Of a stretch of DNA of 35,240 nucleotides, positions 1,446 through 26,411 are shown in pieces (position 1 is the stretch's first letter; each line of letters begins with the position of its first letter). This DNA comes from a virus (taxonomy: Duplodnaviria; Heunggongvirae; Uroviricota; Caudoviricetes), in the IMG/VR virus record IMGVR_UViG_649989946_000003. One strand, written 5' to 3'. Under the pieces are notes generated by a model. That model had not been told where the DNA came from, did not search any database, and was given only the letters and a program-made list of their open reading frames with translations. The translations under genes and the position numbers were made by a program.

Positions 1446-2015
1446 CTATTTAACATACTTGACTGTTAAACTTATAATTTTACCAATTATTTCAATGTCT
1501 TCTATCTTGCATTCGAAGGCTCTGTTTCCACCCTCGACGAAGATTCTTCCACCGGGTAAACGAGTAATGTCACGGATCGTTATTTCGCCATCAATACTTA
1601 TTACCCATTTACCATCACGTATATCATCAAATTCCTTATCACAAATAAATTCAGAATTATTATCTGTGATTACAAAAAGATTCTTGAATGCCGACGGTAG
1701 AAATTCTCTATCGAAAATATAAAAACCGTCTTCACACAAAGCCCCATCAGATAATACATATTTAGCAACTTCCATAGTATTTGTATTACCTGAAGTTTGC
1801 TTTGAACCATGCCCGGTTGTGAGCCAATTAAGCGAAGTGCCTGTTTCAAGGGCGCACTGGATTACCCATTCTGCTGGGAATGAGTCACGCATGTAGCGTG
1901 TGGCGAGTGTACTTTTAGAGATTCCTAAATGATCGCACAACGCCTGTCGAGTCTTGAATCCATAAGCTTCTACCATGCGCTCTATAGCGCCTCGTCCGCC
2001 TTTCTCCAAATTCAT
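1446..2015 (-). CDS. cI: phage 186-type CI immunity repressor
   Basis: About 189 aa, far longer than P2 C (99 aa) and the size of 186 CI. Transcribed divergently from apl/cII. ATG at 2015 with a GGAG-type RBS; ORF-track start at 2021 is an in-frame GTG. Confidence 0.8.
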   Translation of the reverse strand: MNLEKGGRGAIERMVEAYGFKTRQALCDHLGISKSTLATRYMRDSFPAEWVIQCALETGTSLNWLTTGHGSKQTSGNTNTMEVAKYVLSDGALCEDGFYIFDREFLPSAFKNLFVITDNNSEFICDKEFDDIRDGKWVISIDGEITIRDITRLPGGRIFVEGGNRAFECKIEDIEIIGKIISLTVKYVK

Positions 2016-4195: not shown

Positions 4196-5049
4196 GCACC
4201 ATCCTGAAATGGGCGGGAAATAAAACCACCATAATGTCCGAACTGAAAAAACATCTTCCTGCTGGCCCGCGACTGGTTGAACCTTTCGCGGGTTCCTGTG
4301 CTGTGATGATGGAGACGGATTATCCCAGCTATCTGGTTGCGGATATTAATCCTGATTTAATCAACCTCTATAAAAAGGTTGCCGCTGATTGTGAATCGTT
4401 TATATCTCGCGCCAGAGTTTTATTTGAGATCGCAAACAGGGAGGTGGCTTATTACAACATAAGGCAGGAGTTTAATTACTCAACTGAAATTACTGATTTC
4501 ATGAAAGCGGTATATTTCCTGTATCTCAATCGTCACGGTTACCGTGGTTTATGTCGCTATAACAAGAGCGGGCATTTCAACATTCCCTACGGTAATTATA
4601 AAAATCCGTATTTCCCTGAAAAAGAAATTCGCGCATTTGCAGAAAAGGCCCAGCGAGCAACGTTTATCTGCGCCAGCTTTGATGAAACGCTGGCGATGTT
4701 GAAGGCGGGGGATGTGGTGTATTGCGATCCGCCGTATGACGGTACGTTTTCCGGCTATCACACTGACGGCTTCACTGAAGATGACCAGTATCACCTGGCA
4801 TCTGTTCTTGAACATCGGTCATCAGAAGGACATCCGGTCATTGTTTCTAACAGTGACACATCCCTGATCCGTTCGCTGTATCGCAATTTTACTCACCACT
4901 ACATCAAGGCAAAACGCAGCATCGGTGTGGCAGCTGGCGAGGGTAAATCAGCAACAGAAATCATTGCTGTTTCCGGGCCGCGCTGCTGGGTGGGATTTGA
5001 TTATTCGCGTGGCGTGGATAGTTCTGCCGTGTACGGAGTACGTGCATGA
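4192..5049 (+). CDS. dam: phage-encoded DNA adenine methyltransferase (Dam-like, N6-adenine)
   Basis: DPPY catalytic motif ([10 protein letters not shown]) and an N-terminal SAM-binding-like segment (EPFAGSCAV). Start taken as the ATG at 4192 ([11 protein letters not shown]); ORF-track start at 4132 is a 5' extension. Confidence 0.9.
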
Positions 5050-7460
5050 GTCATGCCGATATGAACAACTGCTGCGGCTTCAACGAAGCTGCCGCATCGT
5101 TCTCATGGAACAGCCCGAAAAAGGCCATTAACCCTTATCTGGACCCGGTGGAAGTTGCGCCGGTTTCTACGCTTTCAAACCTGATCACTCTGTACGCTGC
5201 CGATAACGAGCAGGAACAGCTGCGCCGTGAGGCGCTGAGTGATCAGGTCTGGGAGCGTTATTTCTTTAATGAATCCCGTGATCCTGTCCAGCGCGAAATG
5301 GAACAGGATAAGCTCATTAGTCGGGCAAAGCTGGCGCATGAGCAGCAGCGTTTTAATCCGGATATGGTCATTCTGGCGGACGTCAACGCCCAGCCTTCCC
5401 ATATCAGCAAGCCGCTAATGCAACGTATTGAATACTTCAGCAGCCTGGGCAGGCCAAAGGCTTATTCCCGCTATTTACGTGAGACGATTAAGCCATGTCT
5501 GGAACGACTGGAGCATGTACGCGACAGTCAGCTATCTGCATCTTTTCGCTTTATGGCAAGCCATGAAGGGCTGGACGGCCTGCTGATCCTGCCTGAAATG
5601 AGTCAGGATCAGGTGAAACGCCTGTCCACCCTGGTAGCTGCGCATATGAGTATGTGCCTTGATGCCGCTTGTGGCGATTTGTATGCCACCGATGACGTTA
5701 AGCCAGAAGAAATCCGCAATACATGGGAAAGGGTGGCAGCGGAAACCCTGCGTCTGGATGTCATCCCGCCTGCGTTTGAGCAACTCCGTCGGAAAAGAAA
5801 CCGCCGTAAACCCGTGCCCTATGAACTCATTCCGGGTTCGCTGGCGCGTATGTTGTGCGCCGACTGGTGGTATCGGAAATTATGGAAGATGCGTTGCGAA
5901 TGGCGGGAAGAGCAGTTGCGTGCTGTCAGCCTGGTCAGCAAAAAAGCATCTCCCTATGTCAGCTATGAAGCCGTGATGCATAAACGTGAGCAGCGCCGTA
6001 AGTCGCTGGAGTTTTTCCGTTCTCATGAACTGGTGAACGAAGACGGCGACACGCTGAACATGGAGGATGTGGTAAACGCCAGCAGCAGCAACCCGGCGCA
6101 TCGCCGCAATGAGATGATGGCCTGTGTTAAAGGCCTGGAGCTTATCGCGGAAATGCGTGGTGACTGCGCCGTTTTCTACACCATCACCTGTCCGTCACGT
6201 TTCCATTCCACGCTAAATAACGGCAGGCCAAACCCGACCTGGACCAACGCGACAGTAAGACAAAGCAGCGATTATCTGGTCGGCATGTTTGCTGCATTTC
6301 GTAAGGCTATGCACAAAGCCGGGTTGCGCTGGTATGGCGTGCGGGTGGCTGAGCCGCATCATGACGGCACAGTTCACTGGCACCTGTTGTGTTTCATGCG
6401 CAAAAAAGAGCGCCGCGCCATTACTGCATTGTTGCGTAAGTTTGCCATCCGTGAAGACCGCGAGGAGCTGGGCAATAACACGGGGCCACGCTTTAAGTCT
6501 GAGCTGATAAACCCGCGCAAAGGAACGCCGACAAGCTACATTGCGAAATATATCAGTAAGAATATTGACGGGCGTGGTCTGGCTGGCGAGATCAGTAAGG
6601 AAACGGGTAAATCCCTGCGTGATAACGCTGAATACGTTAATGCCTGGGCGTCTCTGCATCGTGTTCAGCAATTCCGCTTCTTTGGCATTCCGGGGCGTCA
6701 GGCTTACCGTGAACTGCGATTGCTGGCTGGTCAGGCGGCAAGGCAACAGGGTGACAAAAAAGCAGGTGCGCCGGTACTGGATAACCCGCGCCTTGATGCC
6801 ATCCTGGCTGCTGCTGATGCTGGTTGTTTTGCCACCTACATCATGAAGCAGGGCGGCGTACTGGTTCCCCGCAAATATCACCTCATCAGAACCGCTTATG
6901 AAATCAACGAAGAGCCAACCGCCTATGGCGATCACGGTATTCGTATTTATGGCATCTGGTCACCCATTGCAGAGGGCAAGATCTGCACTCATGCAGTGAA
7001 GTGGAAAATGGTTCGTAAGGCCGTTGACGTTCAGGAGGCGGCAGCCGACCAGGGCACTTGCGCCCCTTGGACTCGTGGCAATAACTGTCCCCTTGCTGAA
7101 AATTTGAACCAACAGGAGAAAGATAAATCAGCTGATGGGGACACCAGAACGGACATTACCCGCATGGATGACAAGGAGTTGCACGATTACCTGCACAGTA
7201 TGAGCAAAAAAGAGCGCCGGGAACTGGCAGCAAGGTTACGCCTGGTTAAACCGAAACGGCGTAAAGACTACAAACAGCGAATTACAGACCATCAGCGACT
7301 GCAGCTCGTCTATGAGCTGAAGTCCAGAGGATTTGATGGCAGCGAGAAAGAGGTCGATTTACTCCTTCGCGGCGGCAGTATTCCGTCAGGAGCAGGCTTG
7401 CGTATCTTCTATCGGAACCAGCGTTTGTGGGAAGATGATAAGTGGCGGAACCTGTATTAA
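5046..7460 (+). CDS. A: replication initiation endonuclease (P2 gpA / 186 A, rolling-circle initiator)
   Basis: 804 aa with an HUH-like motif ([10 protein letters not shown]) and a Tyr-containing motif (YIAKYISK). Start overlaps the dam stop (ATGA), RBS GGAG. Confidence 0.9.
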
Positions 7461-7508
7461 TTACGCGGATTAACAATTCGTGCTCTTAATAATACCAGGC
7501 ATATCAGG

Positions 7509-7538
7509 CTGATGAACGTAAAAAACGTTTTACATCAG
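7509..7538 (+). terminator. imperfect hairpin downstream of gene A (possible terminator)
   Basis: CTGATGAACGT ... ACGTTTTACATCAG inverted repeat followed by an AT-rich tract. Confidence 0.3.
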
Positions 7539-7551
7539 TAATATTATTATA

Positions 7552-7571
7552 TACTGTAAATATAAACAGTG
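7552..7571. promoter_or_regulatory. LexA (SOS) box
   Basis: tACTGTaaatataaACAGtg: CTGT (7554-7557), 8-nt AT-rich spacer, ACAG (7566-7569), a perfect match to the CTGT-N8-ACAG consensus. It sits about 40 nt upstream of the 7613 ORF and overlaps a -10-like TATACT. Confidence 0.65.
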
Positions 7572-7612
7572 GTTATGCATACAGTATTGCTTGTGGTGTC
7601 ATAGGAGGAAAA

Positions 7613-7801
7613 ATGCAGGACTATTTTTTGGAGTCTTTGAAGCTCCAGCGCATTGATTTTTTTCTTAAGCTTGTAGCGGCTAGTGAGTGTAGTGATGAAG
7701 AGAAGGGGCTGGCTCTGCAGTGGGTTTCAGAGCTGACTGATGAGTTGATGGCGAAAATTCGTGCCCATGAATATAACCGTGTAATGGATCTTCTCGGTTA
7801 G
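7613..7801 (+). CDS. small SOS-controlled protein (62 aa) in the position of the 186 tum antirepressor locus
   Basis: Strong RBS AGGAGG 4-5 nt before the ATG. Immediately downstream of the LexA box and of gene A, where 186 carries the LexA-repressed p95/tum unit. Sequence similarity to Tum could not be verified. Confidence 0.5.
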   Translation: MQDYFLESLKLQRIDFFLKLVAASECSDEEKGLALQWVSELTDELMAKIRAHEYNRVMDLLG

Positions 7802-7971
7802 CAGCAGGGGCGTTGCTGGCGTGAGAACTAGATTCTCGCGTCAGCAAGGTCAACTAAGGATTGAAACAGAAAGCCCTTGAAAACAGTAGCAAGTTGCCTA
7901 TTATCTACGCTGTATTTAATCGATGTCATTGGCTGTAATACCTTAAGTGATATTGAAAGGCGGTGTGGGGA

Positions 7972-9132
7972 ATGGATCTGGCTAAAGTTGAAGAACGCGT
8001 CCGAAGAGTCATAGGGACAATGGAGTCTGCCGAGCTTGATGAATATTTTTGGGGTAAGCGCTCGGGTTTGGGAGACTCATTACCTCCGTATTATCTCGTT
8101 TATTTTCTTTTGGTAGATTTACTGAAATTTAAAAATCGTGGGGTTGATGAGAAGATTTCTTTTTCTATCCCAGTCCGGATTGATGGGACTGTCGTAATTA
8201 TAGAACATCGTAAACTTGGTTTAGATATATTTATCAAGAGTGATGATGATATAGAGCAAGCTAAAACTGTTTTGAGACATATTTGCGCAGGGGTTAAAGC
8301 TGCTACGAATTTTTTTGACTCGCTTGCAGACAATGCAGCAAAGACTTCAAATCTAAATGTTAATAACAATGCTAATTCTCTTTATGATAGGTTTTGCTAT
8401 TTTTTAGAGCTATATAAACAGAAGCTTGATGAAGTTGCTGCTGGCCAAGAGTCTAAACTGGAAGTTGATAGTGAGTTTAAGTCTGATAATTTTTTCAGCC
8501 TGTTACAATCCACTTTTGAACAATCAAATAAGATAATTGAACTCCGAAGAGAGGCTATGTGGTTAGCAACGTCTGCAATTGAGTCATTTTTCAATTGGAC
8601 CGAGCATGTTTTCATTCTTATTGCAATCTTGAAGGGTGAGATAAAAAATGGGAATGATGTGGCTGATAAAGTTGGAAAAGAATGGGGGGAGAAATTCAAA
8701 TTAGCCATTGATATTAACTCTTCCAGTCTAAAATTGTTCTATGATCGTTTACTTATACTCAGAAAACAGGTGCGTAATTTTGTAGCCCATGGCGCCTTCG
8801 GTAAGGATGGGCAAGCATTGGAATTTCACTCAAGTGTAGGGGCTGTGCCACTATTGCTGCCTCATCGAGAAAATAAAGAACGTTTCAAGTTTGGAAATGG
8901 TGTGCATTTTTTGGCACCTGAAGCAATGCAATTAATTAACGATTTTCTTGAAAATTTGTGGCAGGGAAAACTGTCCCCAGCAAAAATTTATATTGAATCT
9001 GGATGTCCTTTAATACTATCTTACGTAACTAATGGAACCTATGCGGAGGCGATGAAATCAGAAAGGAATATGGACTTATTTGTTAATTACTTAACTCGTG
9101 AGATGGATAATGCCGCAAACATGGATTGGTAA
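7972..9132 (+). CDS. AT-rich cargo protein (386 aa) with an HEPN-like Rx4H motif; candidate abortive-infection/defence effector
   Basis: Long ORF of visibly lower GC than the phage core. ATG at 7972 (in-frame GTG at 7963). Motif R-N-F-V-A-H at 8773-8790 (LRKQVRNFVAHG) resembles the HEPN catalytic motif; no Walker A, so not Old-like. Confidence 0.6.
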   Translation: MDLAKVEERVRRVIGTMESAELDEYFWGKRSGLGDSLPPYYLVYFLLVDLLKFKNRGVDEKISFSIPVRIDGTVVIIEHRKLGLDIFIKSDDDIEQAKTVLRHICAGVKAATNFFDSLADNAAKTSNLNVNNNANSLYDRFCYFLELYKQKLDEVAAGQESKLEVDSEFKSDNFFSLLQSTFEQSNKIIELRREAMWLATSAIESFFNWTEHVFILIAILKGEIKNGNDVADKVGKEWGEKFKLAIDINSSSLKLFYDRLLILRKQVRNFVAHGAFGKDGQALEFHSSVGAVPLLLPHRENKERFKFGNGVHFLAPEAMQLINDFLENLWQGKLSPAKIYIESGCPLILSYVTNGTYAEAMKSERNMDLFVNYLTREMDNAANMDW

Positions 9133-9332
9133 ACTCTAGGTGTGGGTTACAAACACACAAAAAATCTTCCTGAGTTAGGTGTTATCCCAACCCAAGGCTG
9201 TGTCAGGAAAACTTCATATGGCGCATGAGATCGCATGATAGTATGACGATCGTTTTCGCTGATGCCAGCCAGAACTGGCGTGCTTTTGCTTATGTCATGC
9301 AGGTGCATGAAAACCACTATATAAAGTGGGCA

Positions 9333-9351
9333 GGCGTGGCGGGGATACGAT
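9333..9351. other. candidate cos site (cohesive-end sequence)
   Basis: GGCGTGGCGGGGATACGAT followed by TGCGCGC, resembling (from memory) the P2 cohesive end GGCGAGGCGGGGAAAGCAC + TGCGCGC. Lies in a GC-richer non-coding block between two AT-rich cargo genes, upstream of Q. Confidence 0.45.
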
Positions 9352-9432
9352 TGCGCGCAGAAGATTATTATTGGTACACTGTCGGTGACTCTCTACGCAG
9401 ATCTTACACATTAATTTCTAATGGGGCATGCT

Positions 9433-10233
9433 ATGATCTTTCTAAGTCATAATCACCGTGACAAAAGGTTTGTAAGTGTTATAGCGGAAAAACTAGCAGA
9501 TGTTTATGGGCGTGATAACGTATTCTACGATTCTTGGTCTATCCAACCCGGAGAGGGTATTATTGACAAGATGAATTTAGGAATGGAGAATGTATCGTTC
9601 TTTTTCTTTTTTGTCACAGAAAATAGTTTGGCAAGTAACATGGTAAAAATGGAATGGCAAAATGCTTTAATTAAGGCATCGTCCGGGAAGTGTAAATTTA
9701 TACCAATACGTTGCCAGAATATATCCTTGCCTGCTCTGCTTACTCAAACGCTATATATTGATCTTTATTCGTATGGGATCGATGTGGCAATAAGACAAAT
9801 TATAGATGTCATTAATCAACAAAATACGTATATTCCTAATCCTGAGAAGTATTCAAACCTCTCCTATGATATTAAGGATGGTGATGGGGGTAAGATAGTG
9901 AAATTATCAGCAATGGATTTTTTAGAACCAATTGCTGATTTTATGATGATTATGGATAATACAATTAAGCATGATGATGTTGTTGTTATGGTCAATGGAG
10001 AAAGCACATTCACTCAGGGGTTTATTGAAAATGCATCTTTAGAAAATGGTATGAAAGTAAGTGGTGCCACTGTTGGCCTAAATCGGGGGTTAACACCAAC
10101 GATGCCAATGTATGTTTCTCTTAGGTTAAAGGATGGTTCACCTTTGAATATATTTGCGGTGCTACATCGAGTAAGTACCGAGCGTTATGCTCCTATACCA
10201 CATAAAGCCGATGATGCCTTTAGAGTAAAATAA
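9433..10233 (+). CDS. TIR-domain protein (266 aa): N-terminal TIR domain plus about 130-aa C-terminal domain of unknown function
   Basis: N-terminal block IFLSHNHRDKRFVS...VFYDSWSIQPGEGI...FFFFFVTENSLASNMVKMEWQNALIKA matches TIR hallmarks, including the conserved Glu in the S..W..E region (codon 9652-9654). AT-rich. ATG at 9433 with a G-rich RBS. Confidence 0.75.
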   Translation: MIFLSHNHRDKRFVSVIAEKLADVYGRDNVFYDSWSIQPGEGIIDKMNLGMENVSFFFFFVTENSLASNMVKMEWQNALIKASSGKCKFIPIRCQNISLPALLTQTLYIDLYSYGIDVAIRQIIDVINQQNTYIPNPEKYSNLSYDIKDGDGGKIVKLSAMDFLEPIADFMMIMDNTIKHDDVVVMVNGESTFTQGFIENASLENGMKVSGATVGLNRGLTPTMPMYVSLRLKDGSPLNIFAVLHRVSTERYAPIPHKADDAFRVK

Positions 10234-10242
10234 AAAGCAATA

Positions 10243-10268
10243 TGGTGGCTATATAATTAAGGCCACCA
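10243..10268. terminator. hairpin between convergent TIR gene and Q (bidirectional terminator candidate)
   Basis: TGGTGGC (10243-10249) / GCCACCA (10262-10268), 7-bp stem with AT-rich loop and T/A-rich flanks. Confidence 0.4.
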
Positions 10269-10277
10269 ATTTATATC

Positions 10278-11306
10278 TCATAAACAATAGGATGAAAATG
10301 CAATAACTTTCTCACCCAGCCAATGGTTTAACTCCTCCATGCGTTTCTGTAATGGCAAAAGTTCATTGCGCACAAACACATTTGCGGCCTTCTCCACATC
10401 CCCAAACCCTCCAACATTATTAGGCATAATCCCCATCATTTGCGGCGGCACGCGGTGCGCAGCCATCATGTCATCGCGGCTCACGTTCTTGATATTCAAA
10501 AACTCATCCTTCGCCGCCACCTCTGACAACGGGATAATCTGAAGCCCGTCCTTTTTGCCGTTAGGCGAGTACATAAACAGGTTGCGGAAGTTACCCGGAC
10601 CTTTGGCACTTTTCATTGCATTGCGGAGGTTGTTCACGTCCTCCTGGTTCTGCGCAGCATCGGTCATGTACATGATGAAGCCTGCATGACTACCGTTAAT
10701 GTAATACTTGCGGCGGAACAGCGTGGCGGACTCATTGAGCAGGGCGGACGGAATGGCAGAAAGATAGCCGGGCAGGCCGTAGATCTCCTGGTTAATGTCC
10801 GGTTCCATCAGATGAAAAATGCTGCCTTTCGTGAACTGATACGGCTGGGTTGTCATACCGTATTGCACAAACCAGTAGGTATCCAGGTCTAACCCGCGTC
10901 GGGTGTATTTTGCCAGAGCAGGCTCAAGGGCGATAACTTCACCGAAGCGGTTCGTGCGTTTCTCCAGGTAGGCGTTACCAAATACCAGATAGTCCTGCAC
11001 AAAACGTGAAAAAGCCTGCTGGCTGAGCAGCGGGTGAGGGATGTAGGTACTGGTCAGAATGTTGCATTTCACCGCAATTGGTGAACTGTGATGCACGGCG
11101 GCGCGGAAGGTGCGCGCCAGTCCGTCAAAGCTTACTGGCGGCTCATACCAGCGATCTGTCTGTACGCATTCCACATAGTCCAGCAGTTCTCGGCGGTCCA
11201 GAACAGGAACGGGATCGCCGAAGCTGAATGCTTCGGCTGTAGTTTGACTTTTAAGCTGGATCTGTTTCGTCGCCGCAGCGCGGTTCTTCTTACTCTTTCC
11301 CATCAA
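10278..11306 (-). CDS. Q: capsid portal protein
   Basis: 342 aa, position and size of P2 gpQ, translationally coupled downstream of the terminase gene. Confidence 0.9.
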   Translation of the reverse strand: MMGKSKKNRAAATKQIQLKSQTTAEAFSFGDPVPVLDRRELLDYVECVQTDRWYEPPVSFDGLARTFRAAVHHSSPIAVKCNILTSTYIPHPLLSQQAFSRFVQDYLVFGNAYLEKRTNRFGEVIALEPALAKYTRRGLDLDTYWFVQYGMTTQPYQFTKGSIFHLMEPDINQEIYGLPGYLSAIPSALLNESATLFRRKYYINGSHAGFIMYMTDAAQNQEDVNNLRNAMKSAKGPGNFRNLFMYSPNGKKDGLQIIPLSEVAAKDEFLNIKNVSRDDMMAAHRVPPQMMGIMPNNVGGFGDVEKAANVFVRNELLPLQKRMEELNHWLGEKVIAFSSYCL

Positions 11307-25239: not shown

Positions 25240-26411
25240 ATGGCTCAGGATTACCACCACGGGGTGCGCGTTGTTGAAGTCAACGAAGGCACCCGATCCA
25301 TTACCACGGTGAGCACCGCCATCGTGGGTATGGTCTGCACGGGCGATGATGCCGATGCAAAAATGTTTCCTCTTAATAAACCCGTGCTGATCACTGATGT
25401 GCTGACTGCCAGCGGTAAAGCGGGTGAGTCCGGCACGCTGGCCCGTTCGCTGGATGCCATCGCTGACCAGGCAAAACCCGTGACCGTTGTTGTGCGTGTG
25501 CCGCAGGGTGAAACGGAAGAAGAAACCACGACCAATATCATCGGCGCAGTGACTGCTGAAGGTAAAAAACAGGCATGAAAGCTCTGTTATCTGCTCAGTC
25601 ACAGCTCGGCGTTAAACCGCGCATTCTGGGTGTACCAGGTCACGACACCAAGGCGGTAGCTACTGAGTTGCTGAGTGTGGCGCAAAGCCTGCGTGGGTTT
25701 GCTTACCTGTCAGCGTATGGCTGCAAGACTGTGCAGGAGGCAATCACTTACCGTGAAAACTTCAGCCAGCGCGAAGGGATGCTGATCTGGCCCGACTTTA
25801 CTGGCTGGGACACGGTGCTGAATGCCGAAGCAACGGCATATGCCACCGCCCGTGCGCTTGGTCTGCGTGCCAAAATTGATGAGCAGACCGGGTGGCACAA
25901 AAGCCTGTCCAACGTGGGCGTGAACGGTGTCACCGGAATTTCTGCTGATGTGTTCTGGGATCTGCAGGACCCGGCAACCGATGCGGGACTGCTTAACCAG
26001 AACGACGTCACCACGCTTGTGCGCAAGGATGGTTTCCGCTTCTGGGGTTCCCGCTGTCTGAGCGATGATCCGCTTTTTGCCTTCGAAAACTACACCCGCA
26101 CAGCGCAGGTACTGATGGACACAATGGCAGAAGCACATATGTGGGCGGTGGACAAACCGCTGAACCCGTCGCTGGCCCGCGACATTATCGAAGGTATCCG
26201 CGCCAAAATGCGCAACCTGGTCAGTCAGGGCTATCTCATTGGTGGTGATTGCTGGCTGGATGAGTCGGTGAACGACAAAGACACGCTGAAAGCCGGAAAA
26301 CTCACCATCGACTATGACTACACGCCAGTGCCGCCACTTGAAAATCTGATGCTGCGCCAGCGCATCACCGATCAGTACCTGGTGAATTTCGCCAGCCAGG
26401 TCAGCGCGTAA
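25240..26411 (+). pseudogene. FI: tail sheath protein FI, split by a 1-nt frameshift in an A6 run (25564-25569); may be a sequencing error
   Basis: ORF 25240..25578 matches my recollection of the P2 sheath N-terminus and ORF 25575..26411 the remainder (...[21 protein letters not shown]...). A seventh A would give in-frame ...[15 protein letters not shown]... Confidence 0.8.

What the first reader, a model, noticed from the sequence alone, without database searches (positions are those of the whole stretch)
7552..7801. Perfect LexA box controlling a small ORF at the 186 tum position
tACTGTaaatataaACAGtg is a consensus SOS box overlapping a -10-like element, followed by a 62-aa ORF with a strong RBS. 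The immunity repressor here is long and 186-like, and 186 is induced through a LexA-repressed antirepressor (Tum) encoded in exactly this position downstream of gene A. This prophage is therefore probably SOS-inducible through an antirepressor, and transcription from this promoter could read into the downstream cargo genes.
Basis: partly seen in the sequence, partly recalled or inferred. Interest (0 to 1): 0.55.

Follow-up and report, generated by a model that had tools for sequence, protein, structure and literature searches.

The report
SOS-controlled Tum antirepressor of a prophage
This is the DNA-damage switch of a Fels-2/186-type prophage in E. coli: a small antirepressor gene kept silent by LexA. 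The same gene has already been shown by deletion to be needed for induction of a near-identical prophage, so the finding is correct but ordinary.

Summary
TACTGTAAATATAAACAGTG (7552-7571) is the only LexA-type site in the 35-kb window (0 of 100 shuffles match as well). It overlaps the -10 of a promoter built like 186 p95 and precedes a 62-aa ORF (7613-7801) with an AGGAGG ribosome site.

The interpretation also holds. The window is a Fels-2-like prophage, about 97% identical to DuoHS of E. coli HS. Its CI repressor is 100% identical to DuoHS CI, the LexA operator (box 1 and the box-2 half-sites) and -35 are unchanged, and the ORF is 57/62 identical to the DuoHS gene. Published deletion of that gene abolishes mitomycin C lysis, and lexA(Ind-) does the same. 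Profile comparison links the family to residues 3-46 of 186 Tum (E 7e-8), not to DinI.

Two refinements:
- The operator is double. A second box (7567-7586) overlaps the first by one core base, as in the ColE1 and pesticin promoters, and keeps its register in 25 of 29 relatives with the long leader.
- The DinI-like gene that follows tum in Fels-2 is absent here. It is also absent in 18 of 38 species-level loci, so this is not unusual.

Read-through into the downstream TIR cargo is untested. A strong hairpin without a U tract lies between tum and the cargo.

Verdict: already known; low interest.

The parts
7529..7534 (+). -35 hexamer TTTACA of the tum promoter (equivalent of 186 p95)
   Evidence: It lies 17 bp upstream of TACTGT. 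It is strongly conserved (TTTACA, or TTTCAC/TTTCAA in the short-leader class) in 39 aligned orthologous promoters, while the spacer is not conserved. The layout matches the annotated 186 p95 promoter. It is inferred, not mapped.
7550..7557 (+). -10 region TATACTGT (TACTGT at 17-bp spacing, or TATACT at 15 bp)
   Evidence: This is read from the sequence. The columns are near-invariant across relatives. 186 p95 is annotated with TACTGT as its -10.
7552..7571 (+). LexA box 1, TACTGTAAATATAAACAGTG
   Evidence: It is the only site in the window within 3 mismatches of the consensus, and 0 of 100 shuffles match as well. A CTGT-N8-[AC]CAG site lies within 100 bp upstream of tum in 34 of 38 species-level loci, against 0.12 per kb in the rest of those loci.
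7567..7586 (+). LexA box 2, CAGTGGTTATGCATACAGTA (core GTGG-N8-ACAG at 7569-7584), sharing G7569 with box 1
   Evidence: ACAG is in the same register in 25 of 29 long-leader relatives, while the N8 spacer varies. The architecture is the same as the ColE1 cea operator (CTGTATATAAAACCAGTGGTTATATGTACAG) and the pPCP1 pesticin operator. The combined pattern occurs in 0 of 100 shuffles. As a stand-alone site it is weak, with 6 mismatches, all in the left half and the spacer.
7603..7608 (+). Shine-Dalgarno sequence AGGAGG
   Evidence: This is read from the sequence. AGGAGG/GGAGGG is conserved before the ATG in nearly all relatives.
7613..7801 (+). tum (TumA-type antirepressor), 62 aa plus stop
   Evidence: It is 92% identical to DuoHS ECHS_RS04495 and Fels-2 STM2728; all differences lie at residues 51, 57 and 60-62. 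It matches phrog_698 at 4e-36, and its family profile matches 186 Tum residues 3-46 at E 6.9e-8. Median dN/dS is 0.13. The AF2 model is a two-helix hairpin with pLDDT 89.6. Deleting the DuoHS orthologue blocks induction (PMC12055606).
7813..7847 (+). 15-bp hairpin after tum, with no U tract; possibly a non-canonical terminator or a 3'-end stabiliser
   Evidence: dG is -26.5 kcal/mol with z -6.3. It is conserved, with compensatory changes, in four other loci that lack the DinI-like gene. The terminator scan does not call it, and there is no Rfam match. Its function is unknown.
1446..2015 (-). cI immunity repressor (189 aa), the presumed target of Tum
   Evidence: It has Pfam Phage_CI_repr (2.8e-33) and Phage_CI_C (2.7e-27). 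It is 189/189 identical to DuoHS CI, 33% identical to 186 CI, and matches PDB 2FJR.
5046..7460 (+). Gene A (replication endonuclease), the upstream neighbour that fixes the 'tum position'
   Evidence: It matches Pfam Phage_GPA at 6e-126. The gene order is the same in 186, Fels-2, PSP3 and DuoHS.
7972..10233 (+). Downstream cargo: a 386-aa protein of unknown family (7972-9132) and a TIR-domain protein (9421-10233). These may or may not be read from the tum promoter.
   Evidence: The second protein matches Pfam TIR_2 at 1.3e-22, and the first has no significant family hit. Homology to DuoHS/Fels-2 stops at 7789 and resumes at 10363. A sigma-70-like site, TTGAAA-16-TATTAT, lies at 7877-7904.

Best explanation
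The locus is the SOS induction module of a Fels-2/186-type (Peduoviridae) prophage integrated next to ybjL in E. coli.

In the lysogen, LexA dimers occupy a double, overlapping operator (boxes at 7552-7571 and 7567-7586) that covers the -10 and the start site of the tum promoter. The 62-aa gene is therefore silent. After DNA damage, RecA-stimulated LexA cleavage frees the promoter and Tum is made. Tum is a two-helix protein equivalent to the N-terminal half of 186 Tum and to PSP3 TumA. It binds the CI immunity repressor and stops CI binding its operators, which switches on the lytic promoter.

The colicin-type double box probably makes repression tight and induction late.

Shown here: the sequence features, their conservation, the homology, and the identity of CI and of the LexA operator with DuoHS.
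Shown in the literature for the orthologue: tum and cleavable LexA are both required for induction.
Inferred: LexA occupancy of both boxes, the Tum-CI contact in this phage, and the kinetics.
For: Site statistics.

Phylogenetic footprint: 34 of 38 loci from different species keep a LexA box upstream of tum, against 0.12 per kb background. Information content peaks at the -35, at box 1 and at the box 2 half-sites, with variable spacers.

Operator architecture: it matches the ColE1 and pesticin operators. Colicin double boxes bind two LexA dimers and give no basal expression (PMC2994835, PMC4482635).

Gene identity: 92% identical to Fels-2 STM2728 and DuoHS ECHS_RS04495; PHROG cross-hits; hhalign to 186 Tum residues 3-46 with probability 94.6% and E 6.9e-8.

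Context: CI is identical to DuoHS CI, and the window is collinear with DuoHS at about 97%.

Experiment on the orthologue: an in-frame deletion of exactly this ORF, and separately lexA(Ind-), abolish mitomycin C lysis (PMC12055606).

Literature: Fels-2 and PSP3 carry tum split in two, with the upstream half as the antirepressor (PMC3121763). The PSP3 tumA annotation reads 'UV induction of prophage'. All survivors of lexA-null selection in Salmonella had lost Fels-2 (PMC12626290).
Against: - No LexA binding, transcript or Tum-CI interaction data exist for this exact sequence.
- Direct BLASTP against 186 Tum finds nothing, so the homology rests on profiles. PSP3 TumA matches only weakly.
- The last 12 residues differ from the tested DuoHS protein at 5 positions.
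- Box 2 alone is a poor LexA site, and its conservation could partly reflect shared ancestry.
- The tail-sheath gene has a frameshift. Even if the switch works, infective phage may not be produced.
- The lexA(Ind-) phenotype in DuoHS shows SOS dependence, not direct LexA binding at this promoter.
Confidence: 0.9

Rival explanations
1. The small gene is LexA-regulated but is not the antirepressor. It would have some other SOS-linked role, such as modulating RecA like DinI or acting as a small toxin or regulator, and induction would depend on another factor.
For: There is no Pfam or NCBIfam family, and PHROG lists it as 'unknown function'. The predicted fold is a generic helical hairpin with no informative structural match. 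Direct BLASTP to 186 Tum is negative.
Against: Clean in-frame deletion of the orthologue, leaving the DinI-like gene intact, abolishes induction in a prophage with an identical CI. Profile homology is to the non-DinI half of Tum. There is no DinI similarity: the DinI-like part of phrog_189 is matched by the Fels-2 neighbour gene, not by this ORF.
Confidence: 0.05
2. The module is an inactive relic. The prophage is defective, or recombination at the 3' end of tum that replaced the tail and removed the DinI-like gene has impaired the switch, so DNA damage no longer gives productive induction.
For: The tail-sheath gene has a 1-nt deletion in an A run (A6 at 25564-25569, against A7 in DuoHS), which truncates it after about 112 codons. 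The C-terminal 12 residues of Tum differ at 5 positions, and homology to DuoHS ends at 7789.
Against: The promoter elements, both LexA boxes, the RBS and residues 1-50 of Tum are identical to DuoHS. The variable tail lies outside the conserved core and outside the region homologous to 186 Tum. Tails ending in DL.G recur in other intact loci without a DinI-like gene, and that arrangement is found in 18 of 38 species. The rest of the prophage is collinear at about 97%. The frameshift lies in a homopolymer and may be a sequencing error. If real, it would block virion assembly, not derepression or lysis.
Confidence: 0.15
3. The main role of the LexA-controlled promoter here is SOS-dependent expression of the downstream defence-like cargo (the 386-aa protein and the TIR protein), with tum as a leader gene.
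For: No canonical terminator lies between tum and the cargo. In 186, the p95 transcript continues past a partial terminator into orf97. The DinI-like gene and its terminator have been replaced, so the cargo starts 171 bp after tum.
Against: A very stable, conserved hairpin follows tum. A sigma-70-like site at 7877-7904 could drive the cargo independently. The tum promoter and gene are conserved regardless of which cargo follows. Read-through would not replace the antirepressor role.
Confidence: 0.2

Closest known systems
tum (ECHS_RS04495) of prophage DuoHS in E. coli HS, and STM2728 of Salmonella phage Fels-2
   Same: The gene has the same position after gene A. The -35, -10 and box 1 are identical and the box 2 half-sites are conserved. 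Residues 1-50 are identical (57/62 overall). CI is 100% identical to DuoHS CI. The integration site next to ybjL is the same.
   Different: The last 12 residues differ at 5 positions. The DinI-like gene that follows 10 bp downstream in DuoHS and Fels-2 is absent, replaced by a hairpin and different cargo. Fels-2 CI is only 41% identical.
Tum of coliphage 186 (p95 SOS operon)
   Same: It is a LexA-repressed promoter with the box over a TACTGT -10. It sits immediately after gene A and acts on a 186-type CI. The N-terminal 46 residues are homologous.
   Different: 186 Tum is 146 aa with a fused DinI-like C-terminal half and internal starts. 186 has a single LexA box. Sequence identity is only about 20% and is detectable only with profiles.
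TumA/TumB of phage PSP3
   Same: The tum function is split, with a roughly 60-aa upstream gene annotated for UV induction, behind a LexA box.
   Different: PSP3 TumA matches the family profile only weakly (E 0.004, probability 8%). PSP3 keeps TumB (DinI-like).
Double overlapping SOS boxes of colicin and pesticin promoters (ColE1 cea, pPCP1 pst)
   Same: The arrangement is the same: CTGT-N8-[AC]CAG, whose final G is the first base of GTGG-N8-ACAG. The box-2 sequence is near-identical; Fels-2 matches ColE1 over 22 nt.
   Different: Here it controls a phage antirepressor rather than a bacteriocin. Occupancy by two LexA dimers has been shown for colicins (PMC4482635) but not for this operator.
LexA-controlled antirepressors of Gifsy prophages (GfoA, GftA) and N15 AntC
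   Same: The logic is the same: LexA represses a small antirepressor that inactivates a non-cleavable repressor (PMC3121763).
   Different: The protein families and repressor families are unrelated, and in Gifsy the dinI homologue comes first in the operon.

Membership tests
Tum/TumA antirepressor family of 186/Fels-2-type phages | Sequence homology to the N-terminal (non-DinI) part of 186 Tum | tested here: met
   The family profile matches 186 Tum residues 3-46 with hhalign probability 94.6% and E 6.9e-8. 186 Tum residues 7-44 hit phrog_698, the ORF's own family, at 2.4e-5, and both proteins hit phrog_8554 and phrog_1993. Pairwise BLASTP is negative.
Tum/TumA antirepressor family of 186/Fels-2-type phages | Encoded directly downstream of replication gene A, outside the early lytic operon | tested here: met
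   Gene A is at 5046-7460 and tum at 7613-7801. The order is the same in 186, PSP3, Fels-2 and DuoHS.
Tum/TumA antirepressor family of 186/Fels-2-type phages | Promoter carrying a LexA operator | tested here: met
   This is met at the sequence level only: for statistics, and conservation in 34 of 38 species loci. LexA binding itself was not tested.
Tum/TumA antirepressor family of 186/Fels-2-type phages | Cognate 186-type CI repressor (Phage_CI_repr plus Phage_CI_C) lacking a LexA-like cleavage mechanism | tested here: met
   The domain architecture and the 2FJR match are shown. The Peptidase_S24 hit is below threshold (E 0.008, 16 bits against a cutoff of 23). Non-cleavability itself was not tested.
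Tum/TumA antirepressor family of 186/Fels-2-type phages | Required for SOS induction; binds CI and blocks its DNA binding | not testable with these tools
   The requirement is shown for the 92%-identical DuoHS orthologue, whose CI is identical (PMC12055606). CI binding is shown only for 186 Tum (Shearwin 1998, as cited in PMC3121763).
DinI family | Homology to DinI or to the C-terminal half of 186 Tum | tested here: not met
   The ORF has no phrog_189 or DinI hit, whereas the Fels-2 neighbour STM2726.1 hits phrog_189 at 1.5e-29. tblastn with the Fels-2 DinI-like protein finds nothing within 2.7 kb downstream of tum in the window.
Colicin-type double SOS operator | Two LexA boxes overlapping by one core base, with the proximal box having a degenerate left half (GTGG) | tested here: met
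   The pattern CTGT-N8-MCAGTGK-N9-CAG is present in the window, in 22 relatives' loci, in ColE1 and in pPCP1.
Colicin-type double SOS operator | Simultaneous occupancy by two LexA dimers | not testable with these tools
   This needs a footprint or EMSA. It has been shown for colicin E8 (PMC4482635).

The most novel reading that the evidence does not exclude
Tum of the Fels-2 group may be a broad-specificity antirepressor that recognises the conserved N-terminal DNA-binding domain of CI.

Tum stays at least 86% identical across phages whose CI C-terminal domains are only 33-36% identical, while their N-terminal domains are 63-77% identical. An identical Tum is paired in E. coli S43 with a 292-aa CI that has a duplicated N-terminal domain.

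If so, one SOS-induced Tum could cross-induce heteroimmune P2-like prophages in the same cell. The colicin-type double LexA operator would set a high damage threshold for that collective decision.
Probability: 0.3. Interest if true: 0.5.

Novelty: already known. Interest (0 to 1): 0.25.

Why it matters
Mostly it matters for annotation. This 62-aa gene is the switch that decides whether a very common class of E. coli, Klebsiella and Salmonella prophages is induced by DNA damage, including by antibiotics. A search with window 7400-10300 (the end of gene A, tum and the cargo) found a match in 1,133 of 5,426 complete E. coli genomes, nearly all at 90-95% identity and covering only the gene A/tum end of the query.

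Yet RefSeq calls the gene 'hypothetical protein', UniRef calls it 'Levan regulatory protein', and it has no Pfam or NCBIfam model. Recognising it allows SOS-inducibility of P2-like prophages to be predicted from sequence.

The double, colicin-like operator and the frequent absence of the DinI-like partner are small refinements. They may explain tight repression and differences in induction kinetics between relatives.

Tried and rejected
- Pairwise BLASTP of the ORF against 186 Tum found no alignment. Homology was recovered only with profiles.
- Pfam, NCBIfam and PADLOC scans of the ORF found nothing.
- The generic promoter/terminator scan does not call the tum promoter or any terminator after tum. 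The promoter was assigned by layout homology with 186 p95 and by conservation instead.
- The AF2 model searched by Foldseek against the PDB gave only generic helical hairpins, with none at E <= 0.001. A profile search of PDB sequences gave nothing.
- An Rfam scan of 7400-8100 found nothing.
- The search for related loci with the very diverse alignment A4 failed and was repeated with a closer set.
- Two papers that would have settled what is already described were not held: Bunny et al. 2002 (PMC151935) and Gillor et al. 2008 (PMC2729051). I therefore could not check whether the double box in Fels-2 has been noted before.
- I considered that the ORF might be a DinI-type protein and rejected this.
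- I considered that the absence of the DinI-like gene marks an unusual variant and rejected this, because 18 of 38 species loci also lack it.
- The heterology index of the boxes was not computed, because I do not hold the published matrix.

Full report
**What is in the sequence.** The stretch 7520-7801 reads TTTACA (7529-7534), a 17-bp spacer, then TACTGTAAATATAAACAGTG (7552-7571), then GGTTATGCATACAGTATTG, then AGGAGG (7603-7608), 4 nt, and an ATG (7613) opening a 62-codon ORF that ends at 7801. CTGT-N8-ACAG occurs once in the 35,240-base window. That loose pattern alone is not surprising, at 0.52 expected. The 20-mer is the only site within three mismatches of TACTGTATATATATACAGTA, and none of 100 dinucleotide-preserving shuffles has such a site.

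**Where the window comes from.** The window is collinear at about 97% identity with prophage DuoHS of E. coli HS. It differs only in the cargo after tum (7790-10362), the tail-fibre region and one short segment, and it ends in ybjL/ybjM, the same chromosomal site. DuoHS belongs to the Fels-2 group of Peduoviridae. The gene order is int, cI (1446-2015, minus strand), apl/cox-like, cII, and so on to gene A (5046-7460), then the small ORF, cargo, and portal Q on the minus strand. The repressor has the 186-type architecture (Pfam Phage_CI_repr plus Phage_CI_C). It is 33% identical to 186 CI and matches the 186 CI crystal structure sequence 2FJR at 2.6e-31.

**What the small ORF is.** It is 57/62 identical to Fels-2 STM2728 and to DuoHS ECHS_RS04495, with all differences at residues 51, 57 and 60-62. 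It is under purifying selection, with median dN/dS 0.13 over 33 orthologues. Pfam and NCBIfam have no model, and PHROGs puts it in phrog_698, 'unknown function'.

BLASTP against 186 Tum finds nothing, but profiles do. 186 Tum residues 7-44 hit phrog_698 at 2.4e-5 in register, and both proteins hit phrog_8554 and phrog_1993. A 28-sequence profile of the ORF family aligns with Tum residues 3-46 at hhalign probability 94.6% and E 6.9e-8. The shared motif is C-x3-(E/D)-(K/R)-x-(L/I)-A-(L/I)-x-(W/L)-(I/V/L)-x-E-(L/I).

The ORF is therefore the counterpart of the N-terminal half of 186 Tum, not of its DinI-like C-terminal half. It corresponds to PSP3 tumA, which is annotated 'similar to 5' end 186 tum; UV induction of prophage', although PSP3 TumA itself matches the profile only weakly. 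AlphaFold2 predicts a two-helix hairpin (helices 2-23 and 28-61, pLDDT 89.6). Structure and PDB sequence searches gave nothing informative.

**Experimental evidence from the literature.** Lemire et al. state that Fels-2 and PSP3 have tum split in two by a stop codon, and that in PSP3 the upstream gene carries the antirepressor activity (PMC3121763). All survivors of a lexA-null selection in Salmonella had lost Fels-2 (Bunny et al. 2002, as summarised in PMC12626290).

The most direct evidence is from the Phollow paper (PMC12055606), which made an in-frame 'tum' deletion in DuoHS. The primers NHR24 and NHR28 fuse the ATG that follows ATAGGAGGAAAG to the TGA that precedes GGTGACTTTTATGCGCATTG. 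That deletes exactly the 62-aa ORF ECHS_RS04495 and leaves the DinI-like gene intact. Both the tum deletion and lexA(Ind-) abolish mitomycin C-induced lysis and virion foci.

The window's CI is 189/189 identical to DuoHS CI. The -35, the -10 and box 1 are identical to DuoHS, box 2 differs only in its spacer, and a few other substitutions lie elsewhere in the intergenic region. The transfer of function is therefore about as safe as homology allows. The remaining caveat is the different C-terminal tail. That tail lies outside the conserved core and outside the region shared with 186 Tum.

**The operator is double.** An inverted-repeat scan showed that ATACTGT...ACAGTAT spans 7551-7587. I anchored 39 orthologous promoters (36 of the 38 species loci, plus the window, Fels-2 and DuoHS) on box 1. 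Of these, 29 have a long leader of 52-67 nt from CTGT to the ATG. In 25 of those 29, a second ACAG lies exactly 12 nt after a GTGG/GTGT that begins with the last G of box 1, while the intervening eight bases vary. Information content peaks at the -35, at TATACTGT, at AAACAGTG and at ATACAGT, and is low in the spacers and further downstream. A Pantoea/Erwinia group has a single box 38-41 nt before the ATG.

The two-box arrangement is that of colicin-type promoters:
- ColE1 cea reads CTGTATATAAAACCAGTGGTTATATGTACAGTATT.
- The pesticin promoter of pPCP1 reads CTGTACATAAAAACAGTGGTTTTATGTACAGTATT.
- Fels-2 box 2 with its flank is identical to ColE1 over 22 nt.

The combined pattern occurs once in the window and in no shuffle. 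Colicin double boxes bind two LexA dimers and give undetectable basal expression (PMC2994835, PMC4482635). I infer the same here: tight repression and late release. That suits a decision that kills the cell. LexA binding to either box was not tested.

**Independent support for LexA control.** Across 38 loci from different species, 34 have CTGT-N8-[AC]CAG within 100 bp upstream of tum, against 0.12 per kb on both strands elsewhere in the same loci. The four exceptions are a truncated contig, two boxes with single-base changes, and a locus whose tum is itself a pseudogene.

**What differs from Fels-2 and DuoHS.** Homology ends at 7789, inside the last codons of tum. The DinI-like gene, which starts 9-13 bp after tum in Fels-2, DuoHS and 20 of the 38 species loci, is absent here. 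It is also absent in the other 18 loci. Several of those share the C-terminal ending D/E-L-x-G. The DinI-less arrangement is therefore a common alternative, not a novelty.

In its place is a 15-bp hairpin (7813-7847; dG -26.5 kcal/mol, z -6.3). The hairpin recurs with compensatory changes in four other DinI-less loci. It has no U tract, no Rfam match and no terminator call. After it comes a sigma-70-like site at 7877-7904, a 386-aa protein with no family, and a TIR-domain protein.

In 186, the SOS transcript does continue past a partial terminator into orf97, so read-through is a fair hypothesis. Nothing here decides it.

**A side observation on mechanism.** Tum remains at least 86% identical in phages whose CI C-terminal domains are 33-36% identical to this one, but whose N-terminal domains are 63-77% identical. 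As Tum diverges (ESSI-2, 186, PSP3), N-terminal identity falls to 43-47% while C-terminal identity stays at 30-42%. An identical Tum sits in E. coli S43 with a 292-aa CI that carries two N-terminal domains. This suggests that Tum contacts the DNA-binding domain and may act across immunity types. The sample is eight non-independent phages, so this is only a lead.

**Caveat on 'inducible prophage'.** The tail-sheath gene has A6 at 25564-25569 where DuoHS has A7, which truncates it. It may be a homopolymer sequencing error. If real, induction would still derepress the phage and lyse the cell, but would not yield infective particles.

**Verdict.** The system is a known one, and a near-identical copy has been tested genetically. 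What this work adds is the second LexA box, the demonstration that the ORF is the TumA half with no DinI part, the finding that loss of the DinI-like gene is commonplace, and the annotation gap.

Noticed in passing
window 25240-26411 (A run at 25564-25569): The tail-sheath gene (FI) is split by a 1-nt deletion in a homopolymer (A6 here, A7 in E. coli HS DuoHS), giving a stop after about 112 codons. This is either a defective prophage or a sequencing error.
   Followed up: partly
window 7813-7847: A very stable 15-bp hairpin (dG -26.5 kcal/mol, z -6.3) lies just after tum, with no U tract. It is conserved with compensatory base changes in Lelliottia, Pseudescherichia, Klebsiella and an Enterobacteriaceae isolate (L009, L011, L027, L045), and is often followed by GGTTGAACAACGAG. 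There is no Rfam match and its function is unknown.
   Followed up: partly
window 7972-10233: The cargo sits in the P2 'old/tin' position: a 386-aa protein with no hit in Pfam (only a sub-threshold Csx1 HEPN match, E 0.05), NCBIfam, PHROGs or PADLOC, plus a 270-aa TIR_2 protein. The pair is modular. The same first gene has a different partner in E. coli 1283, and the same TIR gene is paired with a DUF4145 protein in other strains. It is possibly an undescribed TIR defence system.
   Followed up: partly
L005 2968-3846 (E. coli S43) compared with window 1446-2015: An identical Tum protein is paired with a 292-aa CI that has two tandem N-terminal HTH domains and is only 46% identical to the window's CI. 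PSP3 CI (286 aa) has the same duplicated layout. The S43 prophage is itself degraded: its late genes are deleted.
   Followed up: partly
L046 (K. pneumoniae p1878-9k, NZ_CP072999.1) 1501-1546: A 9.1-kb 'plasmid' record consists of phage gene A and the tum promoter, 100% identical up to the end of LexA box 1. A group II intron reverse transcriptase follows about 360 bp further on. This may be an intron insertion near the operator or a misassembled phage fragment.
   Followed up: no
window 7900-7929, minus strand: A sigma-70-like site (ATGACA-18-GATAAT) points back towards tum. It is probably chance: 2 sites were found in the region against 1.8 expected.
   Followed up: no
P0038 and related database entries: UniRef and some phage records name this protein 'Levan regulatory protein' or 'levan regulatory domain protein'. 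This appears to be a propagated misannotation. RefSeq says 'hypothetical protein'.
   Followed up: no
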